Shown: positions 59 through 26,300 of the stretch, piece by piece | How the letters are laid out: each line of letters starts with the position of its first letter | How positions within the stretch are numbered: the stretch's first letter is position 1 | Assembly (NCBI GenBank): GCA_042217615.1 | Contig: JBDGSI010000040.1 | Span: 1-28,622, forward strand | Length of the DNA: 28,622 bases | Source of the DNA: Candidatus Nanohalobium sp. | Lineage (GTDB): Archaea; Nanohalarchaeota; Nanosalinia; Nanosalinales; Nanosalinaceae | Direction of reading: 5' to 3' | Position numbers and translations under genes: made by a program | The notes under the pieces: generated by a model | Told to the model about the DNA's origin: nothing | The model's input: the letters and a program-made list of their open reading frames with translations, nothing else | Database searches by the model: none

Positions 59-925
59 GTGATTGAACTTGGTTTAATGCTGGCGGCTTTCCTGGCGTTT
101 ATGAAAGGGTTTCAAAGCGTCTATGAAAGGAAAGGCGCGGTAAGTACGGATGAGTTTGTAACTGCGTGGGCTTCAAGAGCCTTCGGAGTGCCGGTGCTTC
201 TGGCAGCAGTCCTGATACAAGACCTTCCTCCGCTTTCCACAGAATTCTTTATAGCGGTGATTCCTCAAAGCCTGGCGATCACTGCTGCATCTGTAATAAT
301 AGCGAAGGCCTTTAAGGAGTCGGATGCGTCGATAGTTACGCCGATGTTTGCTCTTTCACCTGTTCTCGTACTTATAACTTCTTTTGTGGTTCTCGGCGAG
401 GTTCCAAGCCTTTCAGGGGTTATAGGTGTAGGCCTTGTAGCGGCAGGTGCTTATTCCATGAAGATTGAAGGGTCGCAGCATGTTTTGCAGCCTTTCAGAA
501 GGCTTTGGAGTGAGAAAGGGGTTCAACTGATTCTAACTGTGATAATGCTTTACTCTGTGACTTCTGTGGTGGATAAAATAGGGGTTAAAAGTTCAAGCCC
601 TGCTGTATGGTCGTTCTCGGTCGTAACCCTTTCCTCGATATTTCTCTTCCCGGTAATGACCAGGAAATCCGGAGAATGGAGGAAGAAGCTGAGAACTGAC
701 TGGAAACCTCTTACATTCCTAGGAGGGATAGGAGGAGCCGCAGCAATAGTACAGATGACAGCGATCAAGCTTACCCTTGTCACCTACGTAATATCAATCA
801 AAAGACTCAGCATCCCGCTCACAGTAATCCTCAGCTACCTGCTGCTTGGAGAAAAAGAAAGCATCAAAGGAAGGCTCCTCGGCGCAGCCCTGATGACTGC
901 AGGAGCACTCATGATAATCCTATAA
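59..925 (+). CDS. EamA/DMT family transporter
   Basis: 288 aa, about 10 hydrophobic helices in two repeats. DMT-type motifs ASIVTPMFALSPVLVLITSFVVLGE and SIPLTVILSYLLLGEK. GTG start. Confidence 0.9.
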   Translation: MIELGLMLAAFLAFMKGFQSVYERKGAVSTDEFVTAWASRAFGVPVLLAAVLIQDLPPLSTEFFIAVIPQSLAITAASVIIAKAFKESDASIVTPMFALSPVLVLITSFVVLGEVPSLSGVIGVGLVAAGAYSMKIEGSQHVLQPFRRLWSEKGVQLILTVIMLYSVTSVVDKIGVKSSSPAVWSFSVVTLSSIFLFPVMTRKSGEWRKKLRTDWKPLTFLGGIGGAAAIVQMTAIKLTLVTYVISIKRLSIPLTVILSYLLLGEKESIKGRLLGAALMTAGALMIIL

Positions 926-1028
926 AAAACCTCTGGAAAGGTCTTGATCCTTCAGTAACAAAAGAACTTAAGAGCATACAGGTTCCAATTAATTACTGGG
1001 AAGATGAAAAAAGGCCTTTCCACAACCC

Positions 1029-1046
1029 AAAAAATATACTTAAACA
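1029..1046 (+). promoter_or_regulatory. Putative BRE/TATA promoter of the surface-protein gene
   Basis: AAAAAATATACTTAAAC lies ~25-35 nt upstream of the probable start region (1069-1079). Confidence 0.5.
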
Positions 1047-1135
1047 TTCAAGCTCCAAACACCAAGCAGTGATACCCTATCTCACACAATAGACTTTACA
1101 GAACAGGTCTCCTTCTACTTACTCTAACAATAACA

Positions 1136-24087: not shown

Positions 24088-24139
24088 TTGTAGATTTTTC
24101 ACCTCAAGTATAGATTAAATCTGCCGAAAAAGGCAGAAC

Positions 24140-25951
24140 TCATTTTGAACCCTCCGAACCGAAAGGAGAGTATTTACGGCCTCCTCCCTCGTAAAACTTT
24201 CCAAACATCTCCACGTAGTGAAGACGGATTCCCTGAAGGAAGCCTTCTATGATTTTGATAAATGTGTTAAATACATGTCCTACCACAAGCACTAAGGTTC
24301 CTGCTGCAAATCCGAAAAGGCCTCCTGCGGCGAACGCTGTATCAGCTATACTGTTTACAACTGCTGCAAGAGATACTGCAGCTACTGAAACACCGAATAT
24401 CCTGAGGTAGGATAAAATATTGGACATTAAGGAGGGGATCTCTACAATTCCCTCTACTCCTTCTCCCAGTGCCAGACCAATGACTGATAACAGTATTACA
24501 GGGACTGCTGCTGAAGGCCCTTGAAGAATCCAGAGAGCTGCACCGATCTCCAATGCTATCCAGCTTCCTTTCTCCAAGACAGCTTCTTTAACACCGTGCT
24601 GAGAGTACTCGTTGTAAGCTCCGATAAGGAATCCCATGTTTACGTGGACAAGGCCTATTATTGCAGAGTAAGTGAATACCTTGCCCAGATGGTGGGCGCG
24701 GTGGAACAGCACAGGTATATGGCTGAAGAACTCTAATCCATACTGAGCTGCAAGCACTGAGTCCTCACCGAATATCATGAAGCCGAACGCATCTCCAAAG
24801 GCAAGGCCGAAAAGCATTGTAGCAAACGAAGCATACATCAAAGACTTGAAAATCTGTTCTCCTCCGTCAAGAAGCTTGTAACCTCCATAGAAAACAGCTA
24901 AAGTTGTCAAACCATATCCAAAATCACCGATCATAAAGCCGAAGAACAATGGGAACGTCAGGAAAAGCACGTTCGAAGGATCAACTTCATTCGGCTTAGG
25001 AACAGCCATTAAATCAGTTAAAGACTCGAAAGGCTGCACAGGTCCAAAATTATCATGCTGCACAGGAGCGTTCTCAGCCTCTCCATCCTCCTGCTGAATA
25101 TGAACCTTGCCTTCAGCACTGTCCGCAACACGTTCCTCAAGCATTTCAAAACTCTCACAAGGCACCCATCCCTCACAGATAAAAGCTCTATCGGTAGTAC
25201 CAAAGCTTAAAGGAGCCTCAACCTTCTCAATCCTTTCAGAAAGATAATCCTCAACATAAGAAAGCCTGCCACCCCACTCAGAACCCAGAGATTCAAAATC
25301 ATCCTCAACATTCTTCAAATCCTCTTCAAGGCCTTCAATCTCGGATTCAATTCTTTCAACAACGCTTTCAGGCCTTCCAGACCTTAAATCATTAGGAATC
25401 TGGAAAGACTCTCTTACACAACCGGATAAAGCCTTGGAAACTTTCTCAGAAACCTCGCTGTCAAAAACCACTACAGAGGCCTTCTTACCTTCAAAAATAT
25501 CAAAACGGTCGGTGTCAACAACTTCTCTAAAACGTTTCTCATCCAGAGAAGCAACGGAAAAACCAAGTCTTCCAGAACTGTCCAGCTCTGTTAAATCAAC
25601 GTCACAACCCTTCAACTTCTTGTAAAAATCTTTCTCCTCCTCAAGGCCTTCAATCTGCCTCTTAATATTCTCCTTCTCTTCGATGAGGTTGTTTACCTTG
25701 CTCCTCACTTCTTCGAACTTCTCTTCTACCTCATTTACTGAGATTTCTTCAGTTTCTTCTGCTTCAGGTAGTTTAGAGAGAACTGATCTAACATCTACCA
25801 GTAACTGTGAAAGCTCCTCCGCCTCATCTCCTGGAGAACCTGTTTCAAGCTCTCCGCCGTATTCATCAATATGTAGAAGACCTAAATCGTGAAGAGAATC
25901 AACTACTTCCTCAAGCTGTGTCTTGGGAGCGGTAATAGAAATTTTCGTCAT
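24140..25951 (-). CDS. atpI: A/V-type ATP synthase subunit I (a)
   Basis: FPLFFGFMIGDFGYG, SNILSYLRI (essential Arg) and LQGIRLHYVEMFGKFYEGGGRKYSPF. The start may lie 5 codons upstream, at ATA 25966. Confidence 0.96.
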   Translation of the reverse strand: MTKISITAPKTQLEEVVDSLHDLGLLHIDEYGGELETGSPGDEAEELSQLLVDVRSVLSKLPEAEETEEISVNEVEEKFEEVRSKVNNLIEEKENIKRQIEGLEEEKDFYKKLKGCDVDLTELDSSGRLGFSVASLDEKRFREVVDTDRFDIFEGKKASVVVFDSEVSEKVSKALSGCVRESFQIPNDLRSGRPESVVERIESEIEGLEEDLKNVEDDFESLGSEWGGRLSYVEDYLSERIEKVEAPLSFGTTDRAFICEGWVPCESFEMLEERVADSAEGKVHIQQEDGEAENAPVQHDNFGPVQPFESLTDLMAVPKPNEVDPSNVLFLTFPLFFGFMIGDFGYGLTTLAVFYGGYKLLDGGEQIFKSLMYASFATMLFGLAFGDAFGFMIFGEDSVLAAQYGLEFFSHIPVLFHRAHHLGKVFTYSAIIGLVHVNMGFLIGAYNEYSQHGVKEAVLEKGSWIALEIGAALWILQGPSAAVPVILLSVIGLALGEGVEGIVEIPSLMSNILSYLRIFGVSVAAVSLAAVVNSIADTAFAAGGLFGFAAGTLVLVVGHVFNTFIKIIEGFLQGIRLHYVEMFGKFYEGGGRKYSPFGSEGSK

Positions 25952-25982
25952 CTCTTCTGGTTTTATTTTCGATCACCGTTGT

Positions 25983-26300
25983 CTAAAGGTATTTCTCAGA
26001 GAACTTATCGTTGAGAAGTTTTTCAGCTTCATCTCTGTTCTTCGAGGCCTCTTCTCTTATCTTATCGGCTTTTTCACGGCCTTCTTCAATAATTTCCTTT
26101 TTCTTCTCTTCAATTTGACGTTTGAACTTGGAGATCTCTGATTCTCTACGCTCCTCTGCATTATCCTTTGCGTCTTCAACTATCTCATCGGCTTTCTTAC
26201 GGGCTTCCTCAAGAATACTTTCTTTTTCCTGCCTGGCCTCTTCAACTATTTCTTCTGCATCCTCTTCCGCCTGTTTAACATCCTTAACTACTTCCGCCAA
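25983..26300 (-). CDS. atpH: A-type ATP synthase subunit H (peripheral stalk, G-like)
   Basis: E/K/A-rich coiled coil VKQAEEDAEEIVEEARQEKESILEEAR. First gene of the operon; TTG start with SD GGTGA. Confidence 0.88.
   Translation of the reverse strand: MAEVVKDVKQAEEDAEEIVEEARQEKESILEEARKKADEIVEDAKDNAEERRESEISKFKRQIEEKKKEIIEEGREKADKIREEASKNRDEAEKLLNDKFSEKYL

What the first reader, a model, noticed from the sequence alone, without database searches (positions are those of the whole stretch)
60..26300. Kilobase-scale alternation of G/T-rich and A/C-rich blocks that ignores gene boundaries
Seen on the + strand: G/T-rich at ~60-560, 1480-1900, 13400-14000 and 15890-16150; A/C-rich at ~660-1260, 2040-2280, 12900-13340, 14400-15780, 16560-17200 and 24780-25660. 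The switch occurs in synonymous codons within one ORF. In the 901 aa gene, 13201 reads GTA GAA GAA ACA GAA GAA AGC while 13501 reads TTG GAT GAG TTG TGG GAG GGG AAT GGT GAG GAG GAG. The 15922 gene begins with AAG/GAG/GAT/TCT codons and ends with AAA/GAA/GAC/GCA. Known: keto (G+T) excess marks the leading strand and normally flips only at origin and terminus. Inference: a strand-asymmetric mutational or repair process with a very short tract length, such as many dispersed initiation/nick sites, recombination-dependent replication or chromatin-phased repair.
Basis: partly seen in the sequence, partly recalled or inferred. Interest (0 to 1): 0.88.

Follow-up and report, generated by a model that had tools for sequence, protein, structure and literature searches.

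The report
Strand-skew sawtooth anchored on AGGCCT sites
In this tiny salt-loving archaeon the DNA flips from A/C-rich to G/T-rich at each copy of the very common six-letter palindrome AGGCCT and drifts back before the next copy; this looks like the footprint of an unknown one-directional DNA process that starts or ends at these sites.

Summary
Third-codon-position keto skew (G+T vs A+C, + strand) swings from -0.64 to +0.60 in 300-nt windows. Amino acids do not explain it, and it crosses gene boundaries, both gene orientations and spacers. It is not periodic.

The blocks are halves of a sawtooth anchored on AGGCCT, the commonest hexamer in the genome (2691 copies, 16x expected; 88 in the window).
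- At each site the + strand skew steps up by about 0.12, then declines to the next site.
- All 20 long inter-site intervals in the window decline, as do 84-85% genome-wide (random cuts: 50%).
- The step is equal in + and - strand genes and at fourfold sites. It is weaker at codon positions 1 and 2, and absent at one-mismatch variants and ten other palindromes.
- It appears only in the genome that carries the site at an orthologous position.

I read this as a mutational footprint of a strand-polar, roughly 300-500-nt DNA transaction at AGGCCT; the enzyme is unknown. Site position explains 34% of regional variance in the window and 12-13% genome-wide; the rest is unexplained.

The scan had noted the AGGCCT excess in related genomes. 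The only earlier link to skew was an unchecked first-reader note on this same window.

The parts
34..28538 (.). 88 copies of the palindrome AGGCCT, the anchor points of the sawtooth (median spacing 244 nt, maximum 1384 nt)
   Evidence: 88 matches against 8.8 +- 3.1 in dinucleotide-preserving shuffles. One search lists the positions.
430..1012 (.).
   Evidence: K3 residual +0.39, -0.28, -0.57 in the first, middle and last third.
1444..2257 (.).
8392..9692 (.). 1300-nt interval spanning two - strand genes (8243-9217 and 9255-10007)
   Evidence: K3 +0.50, -0.06, -0.60. GC skew falls from +0.20 to about -0.3 and AT skew rises from -0.35 to +0.22.
11319..12049 (.). Interval inside the 547-aa + strand gene
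   Evidence: K3 +0.30, -0.17, -0.57.
13398..14230 (.).
   Evidence: K3 +0.55, +0.52, +0.16.
14520..15249 (.). Interval crossing the convergent gene boundary 14988(+)/14994(-); the same + strand trend continues into the opposite-strand gene
   Evidence: K3 -0.22, -0.39, -0.54.
15797..17181 (.). Longest interval (1384 nt), covering the whole 431-aa nucleotidyltransferase-domain gene; explains why that gene 'begins with AAG/GAG and ends with AAA/GAA'
   Evidence: K3 +0.40, -0.17, -0.67. GC skew goes from +0.34 to -0.06 and AT skew from +0.04 to +0.73.
20241..20870 (.). Interval inside the - strand ATPase A-subunit gene
   Evidence: K3 -0.06, -0.35, -0.57; this gene has unusual G/T-ending codon use compared with 20 related loci.
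24651..25329 (.).
   Evidence: K3 -0.07, -0.47, -0.66.

Best explanation
The alternating blocks are the two halves of a sawtooth in strand composition anchored on AGGCCT. Read 5'->3' on either strand, the DNA is A/C-rich before a site and G/T-rich after it. On the + strand, keto skew therefore jumps up at every site and decays through zero to negative values before the next one. Long site-free gaps show the full swing and look like kilobase blocks. I take this to be a mutational footprint, not a selected pattern. Some activity that recognises exactly AGGCCT starts or ends a one-directional DNA transaction a few hundred nucleotides long on each strand, such as nick-directed excision and resynthesis, strand displacement or strand entry. 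That treats the two strands unequally. A likely reason for the imprint lying on the keto/amino axis (inference): these genomes have NucS/EndoMS but no MutS, and EndoMS cuts keto-keto mismatches (G/T, G/G, T/T) but not amino-amino ones (A/C, A/A, C/C). Any local inequality in which strand is copied or exposed would then become a G+T versus A+C bias. Shown: the anchoring, the polarity, the specificity and the DNA-level nature. Inferred: that a nick or entry event occurs, which enzyme does it, and in which direction the tract runs. A broader, motif-independent regional heterogeneity of the same axis underlies the sawtooth and remains unexplained.
For: AGGCCT abundance: 2691 copies (16x expected) in this genome and 4489 (19x) in the complete same-genus genome SG9, CP012986.1. 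Step in K3 across a site: +0.116 +- 0.006 here and +0.104 in SG9, against -0.017 and -0.004 at random positions. It is equal in + strand genes (0.112) and - strand genes (0.115). Specificity: ten other palindromes show at most a small step, opposite in sign for the largest, GATATC (-0.04/-0.05; GGCC, which contains the motif, shows 0.07), and none of the nine one-mismatch variants shows one (|step| <= 0.035). Unbiased scans of all hexamers and of 3+N0-10+3 patterns return only AGGCCT-derived words (z 23-30). Long intervals: 84-85% of 429 and 518 inter-site intervals of 450-3000 nt decline (mean drop 0.32), including intervals that span genes on both strands; random cuts give 50%. In the window 20 of 20 decline. 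Mutational signature: the step is only on the keto axis (GC3 0.00, purine -0.03). It is 0.119 at fourfold sites, 0.032 at codon position 1 and 0.022 at position 2, against 0.10-0.12 at position 3. Direction of cause: sites shared with SG9 step in both genomes (0.13/0.12). Sites only in this genome step only here (0.132 vs -0.002), and SG9-only sites step only there (0.014 vs 0.118). This holds although regional K3 is about 50% conserved between the two genomes. Reproducibility: the step recurs in three further AGGCCT-rich genomes, M3_22 0.108 +- 0.016, G003 0.066 +- 0.014 and G034 0.074 +- 0.027. Repair genes: NucS present and MutS absent in all five genomes tested. EndoMS mismatch specificity is taken from PMC4838380.
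Against: No protein that recognises AGGCCT was identified. No nick, end or methylation data exist for this organism; the public runs holding it are kept only as contigs. Site position explains only 12-13% of noise-corrected regional K3 variance genome-wide, 20-29% in long gaps and 34% in the window. One relative (G032) shows similar K3 patchiness with no AGGCCT excess and no step motif. M3_22 has the step but little within-gene patchiness. NucS is also present in relatives without patchiness, so at best it sets the axis. The sign of the step fits some tract models and not others, depending on untested assumptions about error spectra.
Confidence: 0.7

Rival explanations
1. Reverse causality: AGGCCT sites arise or persist preferentially where an A/C-rich stretch already meets a G/T-rich stretch, so the sites mark skew junctions and do not cause them.
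For: Sites and steps always co-occur, which by itself gives no direction. AAGGCCTT, whose flanks match the context, has the largest step, 0.15-0.19.
Against: At positions where only one genome has the site, the other genome shows no step (-0.002 +- 0.011 and 0.014 +- 0.010). Regional K3 is about 50% conserved, so a pre-existing junction should leave roughly half a step. Palindromes whose letters fit such a junction better (ACCGGT) show none, and neither do one-mismatch neighbours of AGGCCT.
Confidence: 0.1
2. Selection, not mutation: the few hundred bases on either side of each site are kept A/C-rich upstream and G/T-rich downstream because a DNA-level function needs it, such as protein spreading, unwinding, or an extended palindromic or cruciform structure.
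For: AGGCCT itself is strongly conserved: 49.5% of occurrences are identical at the orthologous position, against 4-25% for 15 control hexamers. Sites often carry 3-6 extra palindromic bases on each side.
Against: The bias scales inversely with coding constraint (position 3 >> 1 > 2; fourfold sites at full size), as expected for mutation pressure filtered by selection. It decays smoothly over hundreds of nt with no sequence-level inverted repeat beyond about 10 nt. Opposing contributions of neighbouring sites cancel additively.
Confidence: 0.1
3. Codon-usage or translational selection: A/C-ending (Watson-Crick decoded) versus G/T-ending (wobble decoded) codons vary with expression level or protein region.
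For: Most nanohaloarchaeal ATPase genes prefer A/C-ending codons. Mean coding-strand K3 is slightly negative.
Against: The pattern follows the DNA strand, not the coding strand. Neighbouring genes on opposite strands are negatively correlated in coding orientation (r = -0.24 to -0.29). The step has the same + strand sign in + and - genes. Spacers share the skew. Adjacent subunit genes of one operon differ in sign.
Confidence: 0.03
4. Classical replication skew scrambled by rearrangement, by recombination between lineages with opposite orientation, or by chimeric metagenome assembly.
For: The coupling of G>C with T>A is the classical leading-strand signature. The genome is an 89-contig metagenome assembly.
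Against: Sign changes lie inside intact, conserved ORFs every few hundred bases. The same law holds in two independently finished genomes, CP012986.1 and CP046106.1, and in other assemblies. The distribution of local K3 is unimodal, not two-state.
Confidence: 0.02

Closest known systems
HIP1 (GCGATCGC), the highly iterated palindrome of cyanobacteria
   Same: A short palindrome, tens-fold over-represented, found in all reading frames and in spacers, and kept at orthologous positions (selection shown for HIP1 in PMC5861425; here 49.5% conservation vs 4-25% for controls). Function unknown. Recent work links HIP1 to transformation and gene transfer (bioRxiv 10.1101/2024.09.10.611283; PMC13756078).
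   Different: This is a hexamer in an archaeon, and denser (1 per 250-325 bp). No cognate methyltransferase was found: C5, N4/N6 and D12 families were not detected in G000-G003, whereas HIP1 has two. The two HIP1 papers I searched contain no mention of skew or asymmetry. In my own test on 250 kb of Nostoc plasmid pCC7120alpha, 154 HIP1 sites gave no comparable step (-0.038 +- 0.019, weakly opposite).
Replication-associated strand compositional asymmetry (GC/AT skew switching at origin and terminus)
   Same: The same axis and coupling (G>C together with T>A). The upward jump at a site has the polarity of a bacterial origin.
   Different: About 3000 switch points per Mb rather than two. The skew decays within 300-500 nt, the switches lie inside genes, and they are tied to an exact 6-bp word.
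Skew 'N-domains' of mammalian genomes
   Same: The sawtooth shape: abrupt rises and gradual falls. Here the increment skewness is positive, +0.08 to +0.18.
   Different: The scale is sub-kilobase rather than megabase, and the anchor is a sequence motif.
Transcription-associated mutational asymmetry (non-template strand C>T and A>G)
   Same: It enriches G+T on one strand and is strongest near a start point.
   Different: It follows gene orientation and this pattern does not. The weak 5'-to-3' gene gradient here disappears when no AGGCCT lies near the gene ends.
Nick-directed mismatch repair at GATC (MutH/Dam/MutSL of E. coli)
   Same: A short palindrome at about 1 per 250-300 bp serving as entry point for strand-specific excision tracts of hundreds of nt. 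That is the kind of mechanism I propose.
   Different: MutS was not found in five genomes and no D12/Dam methylase in G000-G003. GATC reaches that density without being over-represented. No flanking skew is known to me for GATC.
EndoMS/NucS non-canonical mismatch repair
   Same: Present in all five nanohaloarchaeal genomes tested. Its published specificity (G/T, G/G, T/T cut; A/C, A/A, C/C not; PMC4838380) is exactly a keto-versus-amino distinction.
   Different: It acts at mismatches, not at AGGCCT. It is also present in relatives without the sawtooth, so it can explain the axis but not the anchoring.
DNA uptake sequences (USS/DUS of Pasteurellaceae and Neisseriaceae; my own knowledge)
   Same: Hyper-abundant short words spread through genes by a molecular drive linked to single-strand DNA entry and recombination.
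   Different: Those are non-palindromic, about 1 per kb, and tied to known competence machinery. No flanking skew has been reported for them to my knowledge. Competence genes were not examined here.

Membership tests
Replication-associated strand asymmetry | G>C coupled with T>A on one strand | tested here: met
   across a site A falls by 0.046, T rises by 0.046, C falls by 0.021 and G rises by 0.022; GC3 is unchanged. One search shows symmetric extremes.
Replication-associated strand asymmetry | Sign changes only at origin(s) and terminus, with domains of 100 kb or more | tested here: not met
   sign changes every 0.3-1.5 kb and correlation length about 250 nt; the complete SG9 genome shows no V-shaped cumulative curve.
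Transcription-associated strand asymmetry | Sign follows the coding strand | tested here: not met
   the same + strand sign in genes of both orientations.
Highly iterated palindromes (HIP1-like) | Short palindrome over-represented at least 10-fold across the whole genome | tested here: met
   16-19x; 2691-4489 copies, against about 300-600 for the reversed control word.
Highly iterated palindromes (HIP1-like) | Independent of reading frame and coding status | tested here: met
   frames 3/2/1 hold 49%/36%/16% of sites, and density outside called genes is higher (1 per 188-269 nt).
Highly iterated palindromes (HIP1-like) | Individual sites conserved beyond background | tested here: met
   49.5%, against 4-25% for 15 control hexamers.
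Highly iterated palindromes (HIP1-like) | Cognate orphan DNA methyltransferases recognising the core | tested here: not met
   no C5, N4/N6 or D12 methylase above cut-off in G000-G003, and only weak N6_Mtase hits in SG9. G000 is 81% complete, but SG9 and G003 are single-contig genomes.
Highly iterated palindromes (HIP1-like) | 10-90 kb periodicity of site density (PMC5861425) | not tested
   Only the nearest-neighbour spacing was examined; it is close to exponential (CV 0.95-1.03), with gaps under 30 nt depleted.
MutH/GATC-type nick-directed mismatch repair | MutS/MutL/MutH plus a hemimethylating Dam-type methylase | tested here: not met
   MutS_V and MethyltransfD12 not found. MutL and MutH were not searched.
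Very-short-patch repair drive (Vsr/Dcm type) | Vsr endonuclease plus a C5 methylase | tested here: not met
   neither was found. T-for-C neighbours of the motif are not depleted (one search counts).
DNA uptake sequence | Motif-specific uptake receptor or competence machinery, and a motif enriched relative to foreign DNA | not tested
   No search for competence genes or for motif-poor islands was made.

The most novel reading that the evidence does not exclude
AGGCCT is the loading or nicking site of an undescribed, methylation-independent, strand-polar DNA maintenance or exchange system in a clade of Nanohaloarchaeota. Candidates are nick-directed error correction or single-strand entry for recombination. 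Its several-hundred-nucleotide tracts have rewritten synonymous sites genome-wide. Highly iterated palindromes would then have their first readable functional footprint, and the system would be directly testable in cultivated co-cultures.
Probability: 0.4. Interest if true: 0.92.

Novelty: new variant of a known kind. Interest (0 to 1): 0.85.

Why it matters
Strand compositional skew is normally read as a record of replication or transcription direction at the scale of replichores or genes. Here it records something else: thousands of point-anchored, two-fold symmetric, sub-kilobase tracts tied to an exact 6-bp word. That has three consequences.

- It gives the first mechanistic clue for a highly iterated palindrome, a puzzle open since the 1990s for cyanobacterial HIP1. 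The sites are places where the two strands are treated unequally in a fixed direction.
- It shows that a local DNA transaction can dominate synonymous codon choice and even shift amino-acid usage (steps at codon positions 1 and 2). That matters for codon-usage, expression and horizontal-transfer inferences in these genomes.
- It predicts concrete, mappable events (nicks, ends or single-stranded tracts at AGGCCT with defined polarity) in organisms for which co-cultures exist.

Tried and rejected
- **Periodicity:** the power spectrum of the SG9 K3 track is red with no peak, local K3 is unimodal, and site spacing is near-exponential.
- **Amino-acid composition and position in gene:** neither explains the skew.
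- **Expression or codon optimality:** rejected by the strand tests.
- **Other anchors:** scans of all 4- to 7-mers and of 3+N0-10+3 patterns found no second step motif in G000 or SG9, and none at all in G032, which is patchy without AGGCCT.
- **Repair-gene presence or absence:** UDG and NucS are present in all five genomes tested and MutS in none. EndoV is absent from SG9 and from the non-patchy G011, so there is no correlation with patchiness.
- **Methylase and Vsr searches:** found nothing specific.
- **Public sequencing runs:** only Logan contigs were available (X1 is probably the source sample), so fragment ends, nicks and RNA strandedness could not be read.
- **HIP1 control on a Nostoc plasmid:** no comparable step.
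- **Long inverted repeats around sites:** arms are at most about 10 nt.
- **AGGCCT density against patchiness across 20 nanohaloarchaeal loci:** only a loose relation (Spearman 0.46, kin not independent).
- **Conserved strength of individual sites:** step sizes at shared sites correlate between the two genomes (0.30) no better than at random orthologous positions (0.30).
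Full report
**Context.** The window is contig C35 of an 875-kb, 89-contig assembly, 81% complete. The proteome is acidic, with Glu the commonest residue. An A-type ATPase operon lies at 17.9-26 kb. The nearest complete genome (handle G001) is CP012986.1, 'Nanohaloarchaea archaeon SG9', so this is a nanohaloarchaeon of the SG9 genus. 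Genes were called as greedy longest ORFs. All third-position statistics use the residual K3, defined as +1 for G/T and -1 for A/C minus the expectation given the amino acid, expressed on the + strand.

**1.
- The signal is synonymous. K3 in 300-nt windows runs from -0.64 to +0.60, while the amino-acid expectation stays near zero.
- Genome-wide, K3 is by far the most heterogeneous third-position axis: variance 0.097, against 0.038 for GC3, 0.036 for purine skew, 0.021 binomial and 0.065 after within-gene synonymous shuffling.
- The + strand residual is autocorrelated up to about 700 nt, also between genes on opposite strands.
- It correlates across convergent and divergent gene boundaries (r = 0.36-0.55; 0.14-0.35 with validated, non-overlapping genes).
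- Spacer keto skew follows the flanking K3 (r = 0.55-0.74).
- In coding orientation, opposite-strand neighbours are negatively correlated. This excludes expression or codon optimality as the driver.
- There is no period: the spectrum is red and the distribution unimodal.

**2. The trait is lineage-specific.** Noise-corrected within-gene K3 variance is:
- 0.029 here and 0.022 in SG9;
- 0.013-0.016 in G003 and G034, and 0.036 in G032;
- about 0 in several other nanohaloarchaea, Micrarchaeota, Methanothrix and bacteria, and 0.006 in Thermoproteales.

Between this genome and SG9 (median 67% amino-acid identity; same-codon fraction at identical residues 0.636 against 0.548 expected, so synonymous sites are nearly saturated), the regional bias measured on disjoint sites is about 50% conserved. 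The pattern must therefore be continually regenerated. It is not a relic.

**3. The anchor.** An earlier first-reader note on this window (e1-5332600) suggested that switch points coincide with AGGCCT. I tested this.
- AGGCCT is the commonest hexamer of the genome: 2691 copies, 16x expected, 1 per 325 bp. SG9 has 4489 copies (19x). The window has 88 against 8.8 +- 3.1 expected.
- The K3 residual of the 60 sites to the right of a site minus the 60 to the left is +0.116 +- 0.006 here and +0.104 in SG9. Random positions give -0.017 and -0.004.
- The step is identical inside + strand and - strand genes (0.112 vs 0.115). It is therefore a two-fold symmetric DNA property: on either strand, A/C-rich 5' of the site and G/T-rich 3' of it.
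- Ten other palindromes show at most a small, mostly opposite step. None of the nine one-mismatch variants shows a step.
- Unbiased scans of all hexamers and of all 3+N0-10+3 patterns recover only AGGCCT-derived words, with z = 23-30.
- The step is confined to the keto axis (GC3 0.00, purine -0.03). It is full-sized at fourfold-degenerate sites (0.119) and present but weaker at codon positions 1 (0.032) and 2 (0.022). This ordering is the signature of mutation pressure filtered by selection.

**4. The blocks explained.**
- Mean K3 depends antisymmetrically on the distances to the nearest site on the left and on the right. It is +0.17 to +0.25 just right of a site when the next site is more than 500 nt away, and about -0.2 to -0.27 in the mirror case here (-0.09 to -0.24 in SG9). 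Contributions of close neighbours cancel.
- Of the inter-site intervals of 450-3000 nt, 84-85% decline from the first to the last third (mean drop 0.32). Random cut points give 50%. Intervals in + genes, in - genes and across both behave alike.
- In the window all 20 such intervals decline. Examples: 8392-9692 goes from +0.50 to -0.60 across two - strand genes, and 15797-17181 goes from +0.40 to -0.67 across one + strand gene.
- The composition tool shows the same monotonic GC- and AT-skew trends without any gene model.
Three of the four G/T-to-A/C switches contain none.
- A site-position model trained on the other contigs correlates at r = 0.52 with the window profile. It explains 34% of the window's noise-corrected variance, 12-13% genome-wide and 20-29% in long gaps.
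- The small 5'-to-3' gradient inside genes disappears in genes with no site near the start or stop.

**5. Direction of cause.**
- Sites shared with SG9 at the orthologous position step in both genomes (0.132 and 0.122).
- Sites present only here step only here (0.132 vs -0.002). Sites present only in SG9 step only there (0.014 vs 0.118).
- Regional K3 is half conserved, so a pre-existing junction would have left a partial step in the other genome. None is seen.
- Palindromes whose letters would fit an A/C-to-G/T junction better (ACCGGT) show nothing.
- The step recurs in M3_22 (CP046106.1; 0.108 +- 0.016), G003 (0.066 +- 0.014) and G034 (0.074 +- 0.027). It is therefore not an assembly artefact.

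**6. The sites themselves.**
- They occur in all three frames and are denser outside genes.
- Their spacing is near-exponential, with very short gaps depleted.
- 49.5% are identical at the orthologous position in SG9, against 4-25% for 15 control hexamers.
- Flanks extend the palindrome by a few bases only.
- Among 31 relatives, only the SG9 genus and one sister genus are AGGCCT-rich. Some further lineages reached through loci are also rich.

**7. Mechanism.** What is shown: an exact 6-bp word marks points from which a strand-polar bias of about 300-500 nt extends on each strand (best-fitting exponential length). The rest is inference.
- I favour a site-specific nick or loading event followed by unidirectional excision and resynthesis, strand displacement or strand entry.
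- The reason for the keto/amino axis may be that the only mismatch system found is NucS/EndoMS (present in 5 of 5 genomes; MutS in 0 of 5). Its published specificity covers G/T, G/G and T/T but not A/C, A/A or C/C (PMC4838380; see also PMC6159521).
- Every change that turns an A/C into a G/T on one strand passes through either a keto-keto or an amino-amino mismatch. Unequal copying of the two strands then yields exactly this bias.
- Under that rule the more often resynthesised strand becomes A/C-rich. That would place resynthesis 5' of the site on each strand, for example 3'-to-5' excision from a nick and refilling up to the site. Under a single-strand deamination rule the exposed strand would instead lie 3' of the site. 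These alternatives cannot be separated from sequence alone.
- Methylation-based models find no support: C5, N4/N6 and D12 methylases and Vsr were not found.

**8. Comparison with what is known.**
- The closest described element is cyanobacterial HIP1. The two HIP1 papers I searched do not mention skew.
- 154 HIP1 sites on 250 kb of Nostoc plasmid pCC7120alpha gave no comparable step: -0.038 +- 0.019, and inter-site intervals -0.081 +- 0.022, which is weakly opposite.
- Literature searches for AGGCCT in archaea, and for motif-anchored skew, found nothing relevant.
- The scan had already recorded the AGGCCT excess in other nanohaloarchaeal genomes. Apart from the unchecked note on this window, it had not recorded any link between AGGCCT and skew.

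**9. What remains open.**
- Most regional K3 variance is not explained by site position.
- G032 shows similar patchiness with no motif.
- SG9 carries a one-sided + strand K3 excess over about 0-900 kb.
- The recognising protein is unknown.

**Limits.** Gene models are ORF-based, and relatives are not independent samples. The public runs gave only contigs, so there is no read-end or RNA evidence.

Noticed in passing
G001 = CP012986.1, whole chromosome (L013-L068): The + strand K3 residual is positive in almost every 40-kb bin from 0 to about 900 kb and near zero from 920 to 1118 kb. The cumulative curve has no V shape, so the finished SG9 chromosome has a one-sided strand bias with no obvious origin/terminus pair.
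   Followed up: no
G032 (L091, L193-L213; 408 kb sampled): This nanohaloarchaeal genome has strong K3 patchiness (window variance 0.080 vs 0.057 after shuffling). It has no AGGCCT excess and no step motif among all 4- to 7-mers and 3+N0-10+3 patterns, so a motif-independent source of the same bias exists.
   Followed up: partly
L225-L229 (Nostoc sp. PCC 7120 plasmid pCC7120alpha, 1-250000): HIP1 (GCGATCGC) occurs 154 times in 250 kb. It shows a weak keto-skew step of the opposite sign (-0.038 +- 0.019), and inter-HIP1 intervals rise rather than fall (-0.081 +- 0.022; 37% declining). Worth testing on whole chromosomes.
   Followed up: partly
L098 (JBLGBK010000006.1, labelled 'MAG: Colwellia polaris'): The contig carries a nanohaloarchaeal ATPase operon (A subunit 80% identical to the window's) and nanohaloarchaeal composition. 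It is probably mis-binned into a gammaproteobacterial MAG.
   Followed up: no
window 20083-21846 (-), ATPase A subunit: This gene uses G/T-ending codons (coding-strand K3 +0.12). The adjacent B subunit (-0.32) and the A subunits of all 20 related loci (-0.13 to -0.55) use A/C-ending codons. The site-free gaps 19376-20241 and 20241-20870 lie in it.
   Followed up: partly
window 15386-15403: A perfect 18-nt palindrome is centred on an AGGCCT. About 10 of the 34 sites in 8000-19900 carry 3-6 extra palindromic bases on each side, often TCA/TTG ... TGA/CAA.
   Followed up: no
window 10626-14988 (+): The 547-aa and 901-aa genes have no Pfam match. The 901-aa protein is found in 28 of 31 relatives, and its acidic middle part is absent or unaligned in more distant ones. 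Earlier notes call it EndoIV-like; I did not examine that.
   Followed up: no
G001 and G011 (complete genomes): Endonuclease V (hypoxanthine repair) was not found in SG9 or G011 but is present in G003, G018 and M3_22. UDG and NucS are present in all five and MutS in none.
   Followed up: no
G000 and G001, genome-wide: AGGCCT pairs closer than 30 nt are about 2.5-fold rarer than an exponential spacing predicts (3.5-4.7% vs 9.6-11.4%), hinting at interference or redundancy between adjacent sites.
   Followed up: no
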